From a candidate division WOR-3 bacterium (GTDB lineage Bacteria > Hydrothermota > Tepidihabitantia > Tepidihabitantales > JBDRVQ01), in the NCBI GenBank assembly GCA_039801905.1, contig JBDRVQ010000001.1, positions 29,635 through 93,634 on the forward strand: a stretch of DNA of 64,000 nucleotides. The letters run 5' to 3'. Below, piece by piece: positions 2,071 to 58,187 of the stretch. Under the pieces are notes generated by a model. The model saw only the letters and a program-made list of their open reading frames with translations. It had not been told where the DNA came from and made no database searches. How positions within the stretch are numbered: position 1 is the stretch's first letter; each line of letters opens with the position of its first letter. The translations under genes and the position numbers were made by a program.

Positions 2071-2530
2071 ATTTAGTGTCAGAAAATGGGGGGTATTTCC
2101 GTATTTATTATAGAGGGCTATGAAGAAGTTAAAAGAAATTATTAAGGTAAGTTATTGGGTTCTAATCCCAACCCTTATCTCAGAAGAGAGATTAAGGAGG
2201 TGTTATGAGATAATTAGCACTTAATAAAAATGGCATTAAATCATAAGACCTTTATCAAACAGGAGGGGTTTATCTTTATAAAAAGGGGTGTAGCATACAG
2301 GGGATGGTATCAGGGATTTAATGGAAGGGATAATAGAAGTTTTAATAAAAGGCGTAATTTTAGACTTAATCGGAGATTTAATAAAGGGTTTAATCAAGAA
2401 TTTAATAGAAGGTCTAAAAGAGGATATAAAGAGAAGGATAATCAGGAGCCTAAGCCAAGGTATAATCCAGAGCCTAATTAAAGGTTTAATCCGAAGTCTA
2501 AATGGAAGCCTAATCCTAAGAGAAACTTTA
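2071..2530 (+). repeat. Modular intergenic element copy 1: leader (TATTTCCGTATTTATTATAGAGGG ... GGGTTCTAATCCCAACCC), conserved core 2261-2315, then about 17 x 12-nt T-A-A-T-phased tandem units 2322-2526
   Basis: Direct sequence comparison with the copies at 33008-33582, 56588-57735 and 19030-19440 (inverted). The 12-nt period is visible as TTAAT/CTAAT/ATAAT every 12 nt. Confidence 0.8.
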
Positions 2531-2676: not shown

Positions 2677-5600
2677 TCATTTCGTAATCACAAGTTTCTT
2701 TAATATCGCTTCTCTTCCTTTTCGGAAAAAAAGAAAATAGATACGGGGGGAGAGTCTTTGGGCATTGAAGAGAAAAGAGTCAGAATATTTCCCGGGCAAT
2801 TCTCTCCTTAAAAGAATATCAACCCGTCGGCCGGTAGCATCATAAAGGATGATCTCCAATCTCCCCGGCCTTTCTACCCGGTAGCTAATCTTTGCCTCCT
2901 GCCGGATAATGGTTGGTAATTCTAAATAGAGGGTTCGCTTCGCTGGTGAAAATAAAAGATCCGGAATGGTAAGGGAAGACATTGTGGTTCTCATCTCGTA
3001 AAACTCTTGGGTATTATTCCCTTTTAAGGCATAGACCTTGTCCTGGGCATAAGCCAGAGAAGCACCTTCTTTTACCCCTCTCCTTTTTCCGGTAATGGGT
3101 AAGGGAGTAAGGGAAAACCATCTCTCTCCTCTGATGTCATAAGCCCAAAATTCTGGACTATTTCCACCCTTAAAGGCATAGATAAGTTTTAACTTTTTAT
3201 CATAGGTTAATGCGCCATCTCTAACAACTTTTGCCTTCTCCGTGGGTGGCAAATCAAACAATTCCATCCATAAACGAAGACGGGGGGCATAGGCATAAAA
3301 CTTATTCGTCTTCCCTTTCAAAACATAGATATTCTGCCCATCAGTAGTGAGGGCACTTCCCCTATCAAATCGCTTCTTTCCTGGACCTTCGGGCGGAAAA
3401 GGTAAGTCTGTAAACCAAATCTCCCTCTCACAATTATAAGCATACCATTCCGTGGTTCTTCTCCCTTTCAAAAAATAGACATATCCGGTATCGCCCAATT
3501 GGAGATAGGTGAGTCCTGCCCCAGCCAAAACCTTCTTCTCACCCGGAACATCCGCTAACCTTAGCCAGACCGGTTCCTCCCTTTTTGTGTCGTAGCGCCA
3601 GAATTCTTTTGTGTTATGACCTCTAAGAAGATAGAGATACCTCCGACCATCATAAGTAATTGCCGCCCCCTTCCCTACCCGCTTTTTCGCCTCCGAATTT
3701 GGAAAACTGTCAACGAATTCCCAGGTGTCATTCCGAATAGAATATCGGTAGAAATCATTTGTATTATTCCCTTTTAAGGCGTAGATGGTGGTATCGTTAA
3801 CCGCCACCAAACATCCCCCACCCTTCACCTTTTTCTTACTGGGTCCTAAGGGAAACTCTGCTTTGGGAAACCAGAGGAAAGCGGGGGTTGATTCCGAGAG
3901 GATTAAGAAGTCGTCAATTAGCCAATAGTTTCCGTGATCACCACAATAGAGGAAGGCGATCCGAACAGTGGGCTTGCCAATTACGAAATCGGTAATTTCG
4001 TGAAGGACGTATCCGTAATCATCAGTTCCTTTATATTTCGCAATACTATGCCAACTCAAACCGTTATCCGTTGAGAGCAAAACTACTCCGGAGTCCGGAT
4101 ATCTTTCATTATCATCATAATCATTAAAGTAACTCAACCAAACGGAATTGGCAGTGGCACAGTTAATTACCGGGGAGATTAAGGTGTCATTATTCACCTC
4201 CAATATCTCATCGGAAATCATCGCTCCCCATCGCCCATTTTTTCTTCCCTTATGCCAATCGTTGGTATTCCAGACCGGAGGTGATTCACTTCCTCCCGCT
4301 CCAATGCGCCAACCAAAAGGTGGATTGTCACCATAAGGTCCCCAATCCCCATCAAAATCTTCCGCATAGAAGGGAGGGAAAACAATCTCTTTTTTTCTCA
4401 CCTTCACCCTCCGCCGGAAAGTATCGTTGCGTGGCCGCTCGTCTCCTCTCAGTTCGGTCCAGACCTTAACGGAACAGGTAACAATCCCTAAATAGTAAGG
4501 GGCAAGCCAATCGGGATTAAAGACCACTCGGGCAGTATCCCTACCCAATACGATAGAAAGTCTCTCTTCGCCTTGATATGAATAACCATCCGGTCCAGTG
4601 ATTTGGAGTTTCACCGGCACATCCCTTTGGGTCAAAAGCCCAACATTTTTCACTGTCGCCTGGATGGGATAACTACTTTCGCAATAGACCGTCTCCGGCA
4701 TATGAATGGCGATCGTTTTCAGATCATTGAGTAAGGGCTGGAAGGTGGAGATCGCCCTCCGACAATTGACCCTCCCCCAACCGTAATTGTTATTGGGATA
4801 GGGTCCACCTTGAATTGGCTGGTCCGAAGAATCAAGGAGAGCGGAATACACCGCCCGATACTCAGAAAACCCCTTATCCAGAAGCAAGGCGACCGCCCCG
4901 GCAATGTGGGGAGCAGCGGCGGATGTCCCTCTACTCACAATATAACCGCCTCCGGGAGAGGCGGAACGAATCCCAATCCCCGGGGCAACAAGGTCCGGTT
5001 TTATAAAATTCCAATCCAGTCTTCCCCAATACTCCGATTGATTCCAGGGCGGAAGATTGGGAGCCGGACCCCGACTGGAGAAACTTGCCACTGTATCGTT
5101 AATATCGGTTGCCCCAACACCAATCACAATTGGGAAGTTACCCGGTGCTAAGTCGGTCATTGGGTTAGGACCATTATTACCGATGGCAAAAACAGGAATA
5201 ATCTCAAGTTCTCTTAAATTCCGGAGGATATTCCAAAAGAGGGTGGCCGTTCTCTCCCCACCCCAAGAGTTGCTTATCACCTGGGGGGCATCTTCACCCA
5301 ATCCGGCAAACCATTGGAGACACTCCGCAATTATGGAAAACCATCCCGTTCCTAACCGGTCAAATCCCTTAGCGGCAATAAATTGGGCACCGGGTGCCAC
5401 ACCGATATCCTCGGGAAAAGGACCAAAACCATCACCACCACAGATTATCCCCATCGTGTAAGTGCCATGCCCATTATCATCATAAGGGGTTTGATGATGG
5501 GCAACGGCATCAAACCAGCCGTTGCGCTCCCGCCAGCGGTTGCCAAAAGCCGGATGATAAACATCAACTCCGGTGTCTAAATTGCCTACGACAACCCCTT

Positions 5601-18864: not shown

Positions 18865-18937
18865 TGGGTCGTGCAGGATTCGAACCTGCGGCCACCGGAT
18901 TAAAAATCCGGTGCTCTGCCACCTGAGCTAACGACCC
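18865..18937 (-). tRNA. tRNA-Lys (anticodon UUU)
   Basis: Cloverleaf read from the sequence: 7-bp acceptor stem GGGTCGT/ACGACCC, anticodon stem CCGGA/TCCGG with loop TTTTTAA, T-loop GGTTCGAATCC. No encoded CCA. Confidence 0.85.
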
Positions 18938-19029: not shown

Positions 19030-19440
19030 CAATTGCCAACCCATTTATTGGGAGCGGATGGAAAGCGAAGGCTCTACTCAAAAAGAAAAGATTATCCATC
19101 TCCACTAATCATTCTCAATTAGGCTTCCATTTTCCCTTCGGATTAAACCCATAGTTAGACATAGGATTAAACTCTTTATTATCCCTTCTATTAAACTCTG
19201 AATTAAAGTTCCAATTATACCCTCTTTTAGAGTATTTATTAAATCCTCAATTAGATCTCCAATTACGTGTAAAATTATCCCTTATTTTAGACCCTATATT
19301 ATGCCTTCCATTAAATCCCCGATACCATCCCCTGTATGCTACACCCTTTTTACAAAAATAAATCCCTCCTTTCTAAGGATAGTTTTTCTTATCAGTTAGT
19401 TAATTTATTATATTATAAAGCAATTTTGGAAGATGTCAAT
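19030..19440 (-). repeat. Modular intergenic element copy 4 (inverted): consensus promoter TTGACA -16- TATAAT (19412-19439), core 19317-19370, 12-nt T-A-A-T array about 19100-19316, tail module 19030-19100 shared with copy 2
   Basis: The reverse complement matches the core and tail of copy 2 almost base for base. The promoter hexamers are perfect consensus. Confidence 0.8.
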
Positions 19441-33007: not shown

Positions 33008-33582
33008 ATTAAATAAGTTATTATAAATCAAAGGCTTATAAAAAAGGGGGAAATTTAGTGTCAGAAATTGGGGGGTATTTCCGTATTTATTATAGAGGGC
33101 TATGAAGAAGTTAAAAGAAATTATTAAGGTAAGTGATTGGGTTCTAATCCCAACCCTTGAAGAGAGATTGAGGAGGTATTATCGGGTAATTAGCACTTAA
33201 TAAAAATGGCATTAAATAATAAAAAACTTTATCAAACAGGAGGGGTTTATCTTTATAAAAAGGGGTGTAGCATACAGGGGATGGTATCGGGGATTTAATG
33301 GAAGGCATAATCTAAGGCATAATTTTAGGCTTAATCGGAGTTTTAATAGAGGGTTTAATTGAGAATCTAATAAATACTCTAAAAGAAGTTATAACCGGCG
33401 GTATAATCAGAAGCCTAATTCAGAGTTTAATAGAAAGGATAATAAAGAGTTTAATCATGTGTCTAATTAAGGGTTTAATCCGAAGGGAAAATAGAAACCT
33501 AATTGAGAATGATTAGTGGAGAAGAATAATCTTTTCTCTTTGAATAGAGCCCTCGCTTTCCATCCGCTCCCAATAAATGGGT
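33008..33582 (+). repeat. Modular intergenic element copy 2: far-upstream module 33008-33050 (shared with copy 3), leader 33051-33237, core 33238-33292, 12-nt T-A-A-T array 33298-33510, tail 33490-33582 (shared with copy 4)
   Basis: Direct alignment to copies 1, 3 and 4. Confidence 0.8.
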
Positions 33583-56587: not shown

Positions 56588-56703
56588 TCAAATAAGTTAT
56601 TAAAAATCAAAGACTTATAAAAAAGGGAAAGATTTGGTGTCCAATTTTTGGGGGTATTTCCGTATTTATTATAGAGGGGTATTGGGTTCTAATCCCAACC
56701 CCG
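56588..56703 (+). repeat. Modular element copy 3, leader part (far-upstream module, TATTTCCGTATTTATTATAGAGGG, GGGTTCTAATCCCAACCC hairpin) directly preceding the RBS of the embedded two-gene cassette
   Basis: Alignment to the copy 1 and copy 2 leaders. Confidence 0.75.
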
Positions 56704-56718
56704 AAAAGAGAGGTGCGT

Positions 56719-57087
56719 ATGAAAGATGCTTTAAGGCGAATAGAGAAGTATATATCTAAGTTAGAACCAGAGATTATAAGAAGAGATTTTGCCCAATTGA
56801 AAGAGAAGATGCTACAACAGATTACCACCTACTTTATAGAGATCTTTGAGGTTGAGACAAAGGCAAAGGCGATTTTAAGCGAATACGACCTACCGGTTAG
56901 TCTTATCCCCTTTTATCTATGCTATGCCCGGGAATTATATAGCCTTTCTAAGAGATATGCGGGATTTCCTCTCTTCCGGGAGATAAGGATTAGGGAGGGA
57001 AAATGGCGAAATAGAACTCTCCAACCGGAAATTTTAAGAAGGATAAGATTTGATATATTTGGCATAACCTTACCGGAGGAGATATGA
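56719..57087 (+). CDS. hypothetical small protein (about 122 aa) embedded in repeat element copy 3
   Basis: RBS aagagagg 6-7 nt upstream. ATGA overlap with the next ORF. No recognisable motif. Confidence 0.5.
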   Translation: MKDALRRIEKYISKLEPEIIRRDFAQLKEKMLQQITTYFIEIFEVETKAKAILSEYDLPVSLIPFYLCYARELYSLSKRYAGFPLFREIRIREGKWRNRTLQPEILRRIRFDIFGITLPEEI

Positions 57088-57419
57088 GGATTGAGATAAA
57101 GAAGAAGAAGTCACTGGAGAGATTGGCGAAGATGGCAAGGAGATATGCAGTTTATTATCCAGATGCTACAAGGAGTTACCTGAAAGGGATAGTTGACTAT
57201 GTCCTATTTGTGGAAGAGAAGGTGAAAGAGATTTTGGAGGAGCGGGGAATTTCGGTTATTTATCACTTTGCCTATTATGCCTTCGGTAGAAAGGTCTATA
57301 AACTCCTAAAAGAGAAGAAGGATTCCCAAATCCCTTCTTTAATTGAGGAGTGGGTGAAAGATAAATGTCTTTCCCGAGATGTTTTATCAGAGATTAAGGA
57401 GGCTTTATCGGAGAAGTAG
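57084..57419 (+). CDS. hypothetical small basic protein (111 aa) embedded in repeat element copy 3
   Basis: Translationally coupled to the previous ORF. Contains an R-x6-H stretch (RGISVIYH). Function unknown. Confidence 0.5.
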   Translation: MRIEIKKKKSLERLAKMARRYAVYYPDATRSYLKGIVDYVLFVEEKVKEILEERGISVIYHFAYYAFGRKVYKLLKEKKDSQIPSLIEEWVKDKCLSRDVLSEIKEALSEK

Positions 57420-57463
57420 GTCTTAAATAAGACTTAAGTTAAGTGATAAAAATTTTATGATGT

Positions 57464-57735
57464 AGGAGGGTTTTGTCTTTAGAAAAAGGGGTGTAGCATA
57501 CAGGGGATGGTATCGGGGTTCTAATGGAAAGTCTAAGTAACGGTCTAAACTTAGGTCTAATTGGAGTTCTAAATAAGGGTCTAAAAGAAGGTCTAAAAGT
57601 AGGGGTAATAAAAAGAGTAATTGGAAATCTAATTAAGAGTCTAATTGAAAATTTAATCCGAAGTCTAATTATAGTTTTAACCGAAAGCCCAATTGAAAGT
57701 CTAACCTCAAGTCTAAATATCGGCTCGGTGAAAAT
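57464..57735 (+). repeat. Modular element copy 3, core (57464-57518) plus about 17 x 12-nt T-A-A-T-phased units
   Basis: Alignment to the other copies; CTAAT/TTAAT recurs every 12 nt. Confidence 0.8.
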
Positions 57736-57755
57736 AGGGGAGGGCAATAACACTA

Positions 57756-57784
57756 TTGACAAGAATACTTTTTTTGTGTATATT
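57756..57784 (+). promoter_or_regulatory. sigma-70 promoter TTGACA -17- TATATT for hup
   Basis: Read from the sequence. About 125-nt leader with RBS aagggggtg before the ATG. Confidence 0.5.
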
Positions 57785-57914
57785 TTAGGAATGGAAGTGG
57801 CGATAGCGCCCCTCGGGGCAATACCTTGCCAAATCAATCTTTTCCCAACCATTTCTCTTTTAATAAGAAACTATCGTCCACCTTCCAAAAATCCTATTAA
57901 GGGGGTGATAAAAT

Positions 57915-58187
57915 ATGAAGAAAGCCGAACTTATTGAGAAAATCGCCAAGGATGCAGGCATCTCCAAGAAACAGGCGGGGCTCGCTCTCCAATCCTTTAT
58001 GGATGCGGTGAAGATGGTGATGAAGAAAGATGACGAACTGACCCTTCCCAAATTTGGCCGGTTCTATGTGAAGAAGACAAAAGCCCGAATTGGCCGGAAT
58101 CCAAAAACCGGAGAGGAGATAAAAATTCCAGCCAGGAAGAGACCGGCCTTCCGCGCGGGGAAGGAATTAAAACTCGCTGCTAAATAA
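57915..58187 (+). CDS. hup: DNA-binding protein HU
   Basis: MKKAELIEKIAK... with the arm GRNPKTGEEIKIPARKRPAFRAGKELK; 90 aa. Confidence 0.92.
   Translation: MKKAELIEKIAKDAGISKKQAGLALQSFMDAVKMVMKKDDELTLPKFGRFYVKKTKARIGRNPKTGEEIKIPARKRPAFRAGKELKLAAK

What the first reader, a model, noticed from the sequence alone, without database searches (positions are those of the whole stretch)
2071..2530. Four-copy modular intergenic element: conserved 55-nt core plus about 17 tandem 12-nt T-A-A-T-phased units
Shown directly in the sequence: the same composite element occurs four times in 64 kb (2071-2530 +, 33008-33582 +, 56588-57735 +, 19030-19440 -). Every copy has a core, AGGAGGGGTTTATCTTTATAAAAAGGGGTGTAGCATACAGGGGATGGTATCGGGG (85-95% identical between copies). 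An array follows in which a (T/C/A)TAAT pentamer recurs with a strict 12-nt period for about 200 nt (units such as aaagggTTTAAT, caagaaTTTAAT, agaaggTCTAAA, ccagagCCTAAT; consensus nnnaRGKYTAAT). The modules are mosaic. Copies 1 and 2 share a roughly 190-nt leader with TATTTCCGTATTTATTATAGAGGG and a GGGTTctaatcccAACCC hairpin. Copies 2 and 3 share a further upstream AAATAAGTTATTnTAAATCAAAGgCTTATAAAAAAGGG module. Copies 2 and 4 share a roughly 100-nt tail (…GATTAGTGGAGA…CGCTTTCCATCCGCTCCCAATAAATGGG). No cas genes, reverse transcriptase, integrase or transposase are nearby, so this is not CRISPR, a retron, an integron or an IS element. The 8-nt conserved plus 4-nt variable unit resembles a CRISPR array in miniature, but the period is far too short. 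Inference: either (a) a family of promoter-driven structured or sponge-type small RNAs, where purine-rich aRGG/GGA plus U/A-rich units could titrate an RNA-binding protein such as CsrA/Rsm, Hfq (ARN repeats) or S1; or (b) a DNA-level protein-binding array, since 12-bp iterons are known for TubR/tubC-type centromeres and ParR/parC uses 11-bp iterons, with HU encoded immediately after copy 3. Either would be undescribed for this lineage.
Basis: seen in the sequence. Interest (0 to 1): 0.85.

Follow-up and report, generated by a model that had tools for sequence, protein, structure and literature searches.

The report
Phased 12-bp array beside capsid-like genes
A hot-spring bacterium of the WOR-3 group carries several copies of a non-coding element in which the triplet TAA recurs exactly every 12 bases, and the complete copy also encodes two small proteins related to the coat proteins of filamentous archaeal viruses, which are known to bind exactly 12 base pairs of DNA per protein pair.

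Summary
The window holds four copies of a conserved core followed by 17-18 units of 12 nt in perfect register. Nine distinct arrays (155 units, including related WOR-3 MAGs) give the unit RRRRGYY-TAA-TH, with T/A/A at 94/97/100%.

The array is not a gene. The one mostly open frame has 7 stops against 8.6 expected by chance. The ATG is absent from five of the nine arrays. 96% of its "Leu" codons are YTA, against 32% in real genes. It matches no Rfam family and folds no better than shuffled sequence.

Copies 1 and 2 keep only the 3' end of ORF2. Every ORF2 homologue found in WOR-3 is followed by core plus array.

ORF2 has the fold of Adnaviria (rudivirus/lipothrixvirus) major capsid proteins. 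Support comes from a transitive profile link to PF12193, hhalign at 84%, and Foldseek top hits. Dimers of those capsid proteins each wrap 12 bp of A-form DNA.

My best reading, which is inferred and not shown, is that the array is a phased assembly or positioning lattice for an ORF1-ORF2 heterodimer. An RNA-level role remains possible, because conserved promoters point into every copy. I found nothing like this described.

The parts
2071..2260 (+). Copy 1 leader: conserved GTGTCA..GGGGGGTATTTCCGTATTTATTATAGAGGG block, 37-nt insert, T-arm-like hairpin TTGGG-TTCTAAT-CCCAA, and a remnant of the ORF2 3' end (gagattaaggagg...)
   Evidence: 94.6% to copy 2 over 186 nt; ORF2-3' remnant 72.5% to copy 3 over 69 nt
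2261..2315 (+). Copy 1 core (55 nt; invariant 25-nt anchor at 2287-2311)
2312..2515 (+). Copy 1 array: 17 units of 12 nt (RRRRGYY-TAA-TH), then about 2 degenerate units to about 2530
33008..33237 (+). Copy 2 upstream module, leader and ORF2-3' remnant
33238..33292 (+). Copy 2 core
   Evidence: 0 mismatches
33289..33504 (+). Copy 2 array: 18 units, with an in-frame TAA at codon 6 of the apparent ORF
33505..33582 (+). Copy 2 tail, shared with copy 4. It contains an imperfect hairpin GAGAAtGATTA...TAATCttTTCTC followed by TTTG, a possible terminator
   Evidence: 93% over 102 nt to copy 4; hairpin read directly from the sequence; not called by the terminator scan
56588..56718 (+). Copy 3 upstream module, leader and T-arm-like hairpin, directly upstream of ORF1
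56719..57087 (+). ORF1: 122 aa, basic (pI 9.4), paralogue of ORF2
   Evidence: (hhalign 96.2%, E 2.6e-9 to the ORF2 family)
57084..57419 (+). ORF2: 111 aa, basic (pI 9.4), SIRV2-type (Adnaviria) major-capsid-protein fold; overlaps ORF1 by 4 nt
57464..57518 (+). Copy 3 core
   Evidence: 3 mismatches
57515..57718 (+). Copy 3 array: 17 units. It ends 38 nt before the -35 box of the HU promoter (57756)
19412..19439 (-). Copy 4 consensus sigma-70 promoter (TTGACA-16-TATAAT, 12/12) pointing into core and array; homologous promoters lie upstream of L003 and L004
19317..19369 (-). Copy 4 core (1-nt deletion in the second G run)
19117..19320 (-). Copy 4 array: 17 units, with in-frame TAG and TAA at codons 6 and 10 of the apparent ORF
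19040..19116 (-). Copy 4 tail (shared with copy 2), followed by tRNA-Lys with its own promoter

Best explanation
The element is a cassette specific to a small clade of WOR-3 bacteria. Its complete form (copy 3) has a leader, two overlapping genes for small basic paralogous alpha-helical proteins (ORF1, ORF2), a conserved core, and 17-19 units of 12 bp with an almost invariant TAA. ORF2, and by paralogy ORF1, has the SIRV2-type major-capsid-protein fold of the archaeal virus realm Adnaviria. In every solved virion of that realm, one homo- or heterodimer wraps exactly 12 bp of A-form DNA.

I propose that the array is the matching DNA lattice. One ORF1-ORF2 heterodimer would sit on each 12-bp unit. 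The phased TAA would supply a flexible TpA step, a base contact, or both, on the same face of the DNA for every dimer, in the way 10-bp-phased TA steps position nucleosomes. The invariant core, whose last 24 nt are two degenerate units in the same phase, would act as the nucleation or boundary site. The result would be a short nucleoprotein segment of defined length, about 17-21 dimers, or roughly one to two superhelical turns by analogy with the virions. Such segments would form at several chromosomal sites, including solo arrays that have lost the genes.

Shown: the array, its phase, selection on TAA, its non-coding nature, the physical linkage to the genes, and the fold and homology of ORF2. 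Inferred: that the proteins dimerise, that they bind the array, that the ligand is duplex DNA, and what the cell gains from it.
For: (1) Array geometry. 155 units from 9 distinct arrays are in perfect register with the core. Positions 8-10 are T .94, A .97, A 1.00, while the other positions are saturated between distant arrays (identity 0.34-0.39, equal to background). All four internal indels between homologous arrays are exactly 12 nt.

(2) Not coding. Stops in the open-looking frame number 7 observed against 8.6 expected. The ATG is absent in L001, L002, L004, L006 and L008. 110 of 114 'Leu' codons are YTA against 32% in the window's genes, P = 5e-49. All three stop codons are used by real genes. 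Gene callers placed no gene on the arrays.

(3) Linkage. Every WOR-3 locus with an ORF2 homologue has the core and array immediately downstream; L022 reaches only the first bases of the core before the contig ends. Copies 1, 2 and L001 retain the 3' end of ORF2.

(4) Protein identity. The only PDB sequence hits of the ORF2 profile are AFV1 MCP ORF132. hhalign against ORF132 gives 73.6% and then 83.9%, E 7.8e-6. An exhaustive profile search reaches P0013 (E 1.5e-4 over 1.84e9 proteins; hhalign 92.9%), and P0013 scores above Pfam's gathering cut-off for PF12193 Sulf_coat_C (36.9 bits, E 4.6e-9). With an AF2 model of pLDDT 77.6, the best Foldseek PDB hits are 3fbl, 3fbz, 5w7g, 3j9x and 3f2e (rmsd 1.3 A over 75 columns), all Adnaviria MCPs. 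The same pattern appears in BFVD.

(5) ORF1 and ORF2 are paralogues (96.2%), adjacent and overlapping like AFV1 ORF140/ORF132, and both basic.

(6) Literature. There are 12 bp of A-form DNA per MCP dimer in SIRV2, AFV1, SFV1 and PFV2 (PMC5517147, PMC6105669, PMC7189273).
Confidence: 0.4

Rival explanations
1. RNA-level function. Core plus array is a promoter-driven, unstructured non-coding RNA whose phased UAA(U) units form a platform for an RNA-binding protein. That protein could be the ORF1-ORF2 pair (12 nt per dimer, giving an RNP of defined length), another protein being titrated (a sponge), or the proteins acting on the A-form RNA:DNA hybrid made during transcription.
For: A 12/12 sigma-70 promoter 43 nt upstream of the core in copy 4, with homologous promoters in L003 and L004. 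The leader lies upstream of copies 1-3, and in copies 1 and 2 the genes are deleted so the leader sits about 190 nt from the core. The orientation core to array is always the same relative to these promoters. There is no stable secondary structure (z = +0.41 and -0.53), as expected for a single-stranded binding platform. A terminator-like hairpin is present in the shared tail (read from the sequence).
Against: Known members of the protein fold bind duplex A-form DNA, not single-stranded RNA, and only for a duplex is the 12-per-dimer figure established. There is no Rfam match. GGA and purine richness are not conserved; L004 is 46% purine, which argues against CsrA, Hfq ARN or S1-type motifs. 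No transcript data exist.
Confidence: 0.27
2. The array is a phased DNA element that works independently of ORF1/ORF2. It could be a binding lattice for another nucleoid protein, or an intrinsically shaped or flexible DNA segment acting as an insulator or roadblock. On this reading the 12-bp match to capsid-protein dimers is a coincidence.
For: Solo copies outnumber the gene-linked copy (3 of 4 in the window). Distant ORF2 homologues lack arrays. Arrays lie in intergenic regions next to unrelated genes such as HU, tRNA-Lys and aldehyde dehydrogenase.
Against: Every ORF2 gene in this clade is followed by core plus array, and solo copies 1, 2 and L001 are visibly derived from gene-bearing cassettes. 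No other candidate binding protein is linked to the copies. HU has no known 12-bp phased site (my own knowledge).
Confidence: 0.15
3. The array encodes a small repeat protein or peptide, (I-x-G/S-L)n, starting at the ATG that overlaps the first TAA (TAATG). Some copies would be pseudogenes.
For: This frame is open for 84 aa in copy 1 and 137 aa in copy 3. The variable first base of YTA/ATA/GTA always gives Leu, Ile or Val.
Against: The stop count equals the non-coding expectation (7 against 8.6). There are in-frame stops in copies 2 and 4, L004, L006 and L008, and no start codon in five arrays. 96% of the codons are YTA although CTA is 5% of Leu codons in the genome. Between orthologous arrays of copy 3 and L002, counted by eye in a 78-nt stretch, second codon positions change most and only 2 of 14 changes are synonymous (alignment). 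Prolines are scattered through L004. The copy 3 ORF runs through the HU promoter.
Confidence: 0.05
4. A decaying selfish or MITE-like repeat with no cellular function.
For: The element is multi-copy, mosaic, intergenic and restricted to one lineage. L005 and L007 show the same upstream but different downstream neighbours, which suggests recombination between copies or assembly chimeras.
Against: No terminal inverted repeats are shared between copies. No transposase was seen in the flanks I scanned. TAA phase and array length (17-19 units) are maintained even though the variable positions are saturated. The 25-nt anchor is invariant in all copies but one variant, which has one substitution.
Confidence: 0.08

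Closest known systems
Adnaviria nucleocapsids (SIRV2, AFV1, SFV1, PFV2): MCP homo- or heterodimers wrapping A-form dsDNA
   Same: ORF2 shares the fold and detectable sequence homology. Two tandem, overlapping paralogous genes resemble AFV1 ORF140/ORF132. The 12-bp array period equals the 12 bp bound per MCP dimer. The source is a thermal environment.
   Different: The host is a bacterium and the locus is chromosomal, with no other virus genes. The nucleic-acid partner is a short (about 200 bp) sequence-specific phased array, not a whole genome bound non-specifically. The AFV1 genome has no 12-bp periodicity and its terminal repeats have period 5. ORF1 shows no direct similarity to AFV1 ORF140.
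Nucleosome-positioning sequences (10-bp phased TA/AA steps, e.g. Widom 601)
   Same: A short flexible step recurs with the local helical period seen by the wrapping protein, which sets rotational register and affinity.
   Different: The period is 12 rather than about 10 bp, the protein is unrelated, and the motif is far more strictly conserved (TAA at 94% or more). The analogy comes from my own knowledge and was not tested.
Plasmid centromeres with short iterons (TubR-tubC, ParR-parC)
   Same: Tandem 11-12-bp iterons are bound cooperatively to give a superhelical nucleoprotein.
   Different: No partition NTPase or ParR/TubR was found next to any copy. There are 17-19 units rather than about 7-10. 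The element is present in several chromosomal copies. A conserved core and promoters accompany it.
Csr/Rsm-type protein-sponge small RNAs (CsrB, RsmY/Z) and CrcZ
   Same: A promoter-driven non-coding unit present in several copies, with many repeats of a short motif.
   Different: There is no GGA-in-loop motif, no hairpins, a strict 12-nt phase and no Rfam hit.
Alpha/beta-type small acid-soluble spore proteins (SASP)
   Same: Small bacterial proteins that coat DNA and push it towards an A-like form for protection. This is a possible functional parallel (my own knowledge).
   Different: The fold is unrelated, binding is non-specific, and there is no cognate array.

Membership tests
Adnaviria major capsid protein (Pfam PF12193 Sulf_coat_C / PF21660 MCP_C), applied to ORF2 | Sequence match at or above Pfam's gathering score | tested here: not met
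   ORF2 scores 17.6 and 17.1 bits against cut-offs of 25.2 and 27. The link is transitive only. The ORF2-family profile finds P0013 at E 1.5e-4 over 1.84e9 proteins and hhalign gives 92.9%. P0013 scores 36.9 bits on PF12193, above the cut-off.
Adnaviria major capsid protein, applied to ORF2 | SIRV2-type fold: N-terminal arm plus C-terminal four-helix bundle | tested here: met
Adnaviria major capsid protein | Forms dimers that wrap 12 bp of A-form dsDNA into a helical filament | not testable with these tools
   Indirect evidence only: two tandem paralogues, both basic, and an adjacent array of period 12.
Adnaviria major capsid protein | Encoded in a linear dsDNA virus genome of archaea | tested here: not met
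   The context is a bacterial chromosome with recA, cmk, HU and a glycosyltransferase. MAGs are labelled candidate division WOR-3. There are no relatives in IMG/VR.
Protein-coding gene (repeat protein) over the array | Intact ORF with a start codon, fewer stops than chance, host-like codon usage | tested here: not met
CRISPR array | Direct repeats of about 23-55 nt separated by unique spacers of similar length; cas genes | tested here: not met
   The unit is 12 nt with 3-5 conserved bases. No cas domains were found in the flanking genes scanned.
Csr/Rsm sponge sRNA | Multiple GGA motifs presented in hairpin loops; Rfam family match | tested here: not met
   No Rfam hit. Fold z-scores are +0.41 and -0.53. 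GGA is not a conserved position.
Type Ib/III partition centromere (parC/tubC) | Iteron array adjacent to its adaptor (ParR/TubR) and an NTPase (ParM/TubZ) | tested here: not met
   The neighbours scanned in Pfam show no such domains. The element is chromosomal and multi-copy.
MITE or IS-derived element | Terminal inverted repeats shared by copies, target-site duplication | tested here: not met
   Only copy-specific weak inverted repeats were found, and none in copy 4.
G-quadruplex-forming leader (considered for the core) | Four runs of at least 3 G conserved in all copies | tested here: not met
   L008-L011 have GGTG and GGAAG in runs 3 and 4, and L004 lacks run 4.

The most novel reading that the evidence does not exclude
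Bacteria of the WOR-3 clade possess cellular homologues of the Adnaviria capsid protein, a fold described as unique to archaeal filamentous viruses. They would use these as a heterodimeric chromatin-like protein that assembles in 12-bp register on dedicated phased TAA arrays. This would create short A-form nucleoprotein segments of defined length at several chromosomal sites. It would be the first sequence-positioned A-form DNA structure in a cell and a candidate cellular relative or ancestor of an entire virus realm's capsid. A bolder variant is that transcription from the conserved promoters creates an A-form RNA:DNA hybrid over the array, and that this hybrid is the real ligand.
Probability: 0.3. 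Interest if true: 0.92.

Novelty: categorically new. Interest (0 to 1): 0.82.

Why it matters
The Adnaviria capsid fold is described as unique, with no counterpart in other viruses, and its hosts are archaea only (ICTV profile 2025, PMC12282232). I found no report of bacterial or cellular homologues in the searchable literature. A bacterial chromosomal pair of such proteins would bear on where this virus realm's capsid came from.

The 12-bp phased array turns this into a directly testable hypothesis: one dimer per unit. It could also provide a natural positioning sequence for A-form DNA nucleoprotein. That would be useful for structural work and for asking how thermophiles protect or organise DNA.

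Even if the protein link fails, a strictly phased, strongly selected, non-coding TAA array with a conserved core and its own promoters belongs to no known class.

Tried and rejected
1. Protein-coding readings of the array in all six frames. The FN frame and the minus-strand frames have stops or no start codons. The open-looking frame fails the stop-count, start-codon and codon-usage tests.
2. Stop-codon reassignment. Real genes end in TGA, TAA and TAG.
3. G-quadruplex in the core. The G runs are not conserved in L004 and L008.
4. Structured RNA. No Rfam family matched at gathering thresholds over the window, and only a chance snoRNA hit (E 0.033) in a permissive scan of copy 2. Fold z-scores are near 0.
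5. MITE-type terminal inverted repeats. None are shared between copies.
6. The core 19-mer in JGI metagenome contigs gave 0 hits. ORF2 relatives in JGI metagenomes and IMG/VR gave none. tblastn of ORF2 against phage genomes gave only chance hits.
7. A 12-bp periodicity or 12-bp terminal repeats in the AFV1 genome as a viral parallel. Both are absent; the terminal repeats have period 5.
8. An IMG/VR scan for (TAA-N9)x10. It was uninformative, returning generic tandem repeats in AT-rich giant-virus MAGs.
10. A promoter inside the core (TATAAA). It is not conserved in copies 3 and 4.
11. A conserved 5-codon mini-ORF, ATG GTA TCN ... TAA, ending at the first array TAA. It is present in all copies but has no properly spaced Shine-Dalgarno sequence. 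I did not pursue it.
12. Direct similarity of ORF1 to AFV1 ORF140. None was found.

Full report
**1. Observation**

The four copies are real. The 55-nt core matches three times on the plus strand with 1, 0 and 3 mismatches, where none is expected by chance. A fourth copy lies on the minus strand at 19369-19317, 92.6% identical with a one-base deletion.

The invariant 25-mer GGTGTAGCATACAGGGGATGGTATC serves as an anchor. Counting from it, the downstream sequence of every copy falls into 12-nt units without a single register shift: 17, 18, 17 and 17 units. A lag-identity scan of all 64 kb finds these four regions and nothing else. Spectral power of TAA at period 12 is 15.7 in array 1 and 0.47 in the rest of the window.

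- leader c1/c2: 94.6% over 186 nt
- upstream module c2/c3: 87% over 54 nt
- tail c2/c4: 93% over 102 nt

**2. Relatives**

An exact 19-mer from the core occurs in only one of 185,579 species-representative genomes. That genome is a candidate division WOR-3 MAG from a hot spring, and it has four copies (L001-L004). The 19-mer does not occur in the JGI metagenome contigs.

Further copies came from the genomic contexts of ORF2 homologues (L005-L011, L022). Together they give nine distinct arrays and 155 units.

The unit logo is:
- positions 1-5: purine-rich
- position 6: Y
- position 7: Y (C .49, T .28)
- positions 8-10: T .94, A .97, A 1.00
- position 11: T .70
- position 12: H

Between distant arrays, identity at the variable positions (0.34-0.39) equals the background identity between unrelated units (0.38). 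The spacers are therefore saturated, while TAA and its phase are kept. All four internal indels between homologous arrays are exactly 12 nt. Array length stays at 17-19 units.

**3. Is the array a gene?**

The array looks like one. The ATG in TAATG opens a frame reading (I-x-G/S-L)n, open for 84 codons in copy 1 and 137 in copy 3. The evidence against coding is as follows:
- Copies 2 and 4, L004, L006 and L008 carry in-frame stops, and the phased units continue past them.
- L001, L002, L004, L006 and L008 have no start codon.
- Position-specific base frequencies alone predict 8.6 stops in this frame; 7 are observed. There is no selection for an open frame.
- 110 of 114 "Leu" codons are YTA, against 32% in 36 real genes of the window, where CTA is only 5%. 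P = 5e-49.
- TGA, TAA and TAG all terminate real genes.
- Between the orthologous arrays of copy 3 and L002, changes concentrate at second codon positions. I counted this by eye in a 78-nt stretch (alignment).
- Gene callers annotated nothing on the arrays.

The constraint therefore acts on the nucleic acid.

**4. Is it a structured RNA?**

No Rfam family matches. The only weak hit in a permissive scan of copy 2 is a chance snoRNA match at E 0.033. The copy-4 transcript and the copy-1 array fold no better than shuffled sequence (z = +0.41 and -0.53). A G-quadruplex in the core is excluded by L004 and L008. No terminal inverted repeats are shared between copies.

**5.

Copy 3 holds two overlapping genes between leader and core: ORF1 (56719-57087, 122 aa) and ORF2 (57084-57419, 111 aa). 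Copies 1, 2 and L001 keep only the last 30 nt or so of ORF2. They are deletion derivatives of the full cassette.

Copy 4, L003 and L004 form a second type. In these a homologous consensus promoter (TTGACA-16/17-TATAAT) sits about 45 nt upstream of the core.

Every ORF2 homologue in this clade is followed by core plus array. The L022 contig ends within the first bases of the core.

**6. What the proteins are**

- ORF1 and ORF2 are paralogues (hhalign 96.2%, E 2.6e-9), and both are basic with pI 9.4.
- ORF2's only Pfam hits are sub-threshold matches to the two coat-protein families of filamentous archaeal viruses.
- The only PDB sequences hit by the family profile are AFV1 MCP ORF132.
- hhalign against ORF132 gives 73.6%, rising to 83.9% (E 7.8e-6, 80 columns) with a deeper alignment.
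- An exhaustive profile search of 1.84 billion representatives finds only ten proteins. One of them, P0013, is linked to ORF2 at E 1.5e-4 (hhalign 92.9%). P0013 scores above the gathering threshold on PF12193 (36.9 bits, E 4.6e-9). P0012 and P0014 give further weak hits to the same families.
- An AlphaFold model built with the deeper alignment has pLDDT 77.6. Its best Foldseek PDB matches are almost exclusively Adnaviria capsid proteins: 3fbl, 3fbz, 5w7g, 3j9x and 3f2e, the last at 1.3 A over 75 columns. The viral structure library gives the same pattern.

More distant bacterial members of the family occur as three or four tandem paralogues in a high-GC bacterium (L013). They have no periodic array nearby.

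**7. The link**

In SIRV2, AFV1, SFV1 and PFV2 the asymmetric unit of the virion is one MCP homo- or heterodimer plus exactly 12 bp of A-form DNA (PMC5517147, PMC6105669, PMC7189273). Relative to the protein lattice, the DNA makes one local turn per 12 bp.

A 12-bp phased TAA would therefore present the same flexible TpA step, or the same contact, to every dimer. This is how 10-bp phased TA steps position nucleosomes (analogy from my own knowledge). The last 24 nt of the core read as two degenerate units in phase: GTGTAGCATACA and GGGGATGGTATC, compared with GGGGATTTAATG for unit 1. That fits a special nucleating end.

An array of 17-21 units would hold one to two superhelical turns, given 9.3-17.1 dimers per turn in virions. 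All of this is inference. No binding has been shown.

**8. What argues otherwise**

- Capsid proteins of this fold bind DNA non-specifically.
- The AFV1 genome has no 12-bp signal, and its terminal repeats have period 5.
- Distant homologues lack arrays.
- Conserved promoters point into all copies, so an RNA product probably matters.

This last point keeps alive an RNA-platform model, or a model in which the A-form RNA:DNA hybrid is the ligand. Purine richness is not essential, since L004 is 46% purine. That argues against Hfq, CsrA or S1-type motifs.

**9. Novelty**

The ICTV 2025 profile calls the fold unique and lists archaeal hosts only. Literature searches found no bacterial or cellular homologues and nothing resembling the array.

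The element fails the defining tests for CRISPR, Csr/Rsm RNAs, partition centromeres, MITEs and protein-coding repeats. I rate it categorically new, with the mechanism held at about 0.4 confidence.

Noticed in passing
window 2146-2162, 33138-33154, 56684-56700; L022 about 285-305: The leader hairpin TTGGG-TTCTAAT-CCCAA followed by CCCC looks like a tRNA T-arm plus the 3' acceptor strand. L022 has TTGGG-TTCAAAT-CCCGG, so the U-A pairs become U.G, which fits an RNA-level stem. It could be a remnant of a tRNA-gene integration site or a tRNA-like module. ARAGORN calls no tRNA there. L002 lacks the hairpin altogether.
   Followed up: partly
window 2084-2115, 33062-33093, 56638-56669 (leader block GTGTCA-N17-CGTATTTATTATAG): TTTCCGT..TT..TAT..AG.G is invariant in 7 leaders, but there is no sigma-70 -35/-10 match. 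The spacing TGTCAG-17-CGTA recalls ECF-sigma promoters (my own knowledge). If so, the cassette might be stress-regulated.
   Followed up: no
L005 vs L007 vs L006: The same ORF1-ORF2 cassette has identical upstream neighbours in L005 and L007 but different arrays and downstream genes (HU against peptidase M48/LemA). L006 has the L007 downstream side with a different upstream side (nSTAND NTPase, methyltransferase). This reflects either recombination between element copies or MAG assembly chimeras at the repeat.
   Followed up: no
L013 2198-3787 (also L014, L015, L021): In a 62% GC bacterium, three or four tandem paralogues of the same MCP-like family form an operon downstream of a sigma-54 activator gene. 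No periodic array is present. The 3401-3787 product matches ORF1 at hhalign 97.3%.
   Followed up: partly
L016-L018: An 81-aa family member (P0011) sits next to a HEPN RiboL-PSP gene and a NucS-like gene, which may be a defence-island context.
   Followed up: no
L019 1640-1760 and 2290-2600: Long 7-nt tandem repeats (GGACTGA/GGACCAA and relatives) flank a distant homologue on a 2.9-kb metagenome contig.
   Followed up: no
window 2304-2321 and equivalents in all copies: A 5-codon mini-ORF, ATG GTA TCN GGN NTN TAA, is conserved in every copy. It starts in the invariant core and ends at the first array TAA. In that frame every unit ends in an in-frame TAA. In several copies the stop overlaps an ATG (TAATG). 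There is no well-spaced Shine-Dalgarno sequence.
   Followed up: partly
window 18865-18937 (-): tRNA-Lys(TTT), with its own TTGACT-16-TAAGAT promoter, lies immediately downstream of the copy 4 tail.
   Followed up: yes
window 57756-57784 and L002 about 4520-4550: The HU gene has a conserved TTGACA-17-TATATT promoter and a conserved 5' UTR of about 130 nt directly after array 3. The 137-aa ORFs on both strands across array 3 (57524-57937 +, 57439-57852 -) are artefacts of the repeat composition.
   Followed up: partly
L001 about 230-300, L002 about 4860-4930 (minus strand): Between ORF2 and the core, the JZ-2 MAG carries a GC-rich hairpin with compensatory differences (CGCCTC-AAA-GAGGCG against CGCC-GCTG-GCGG) inside an AGTCT...AGAC(T) outer stem, followed by TTTATAA. 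This may be a terminator or attenuator separating the genes from the array. It is absent from the window's copies.
   Followed up: no
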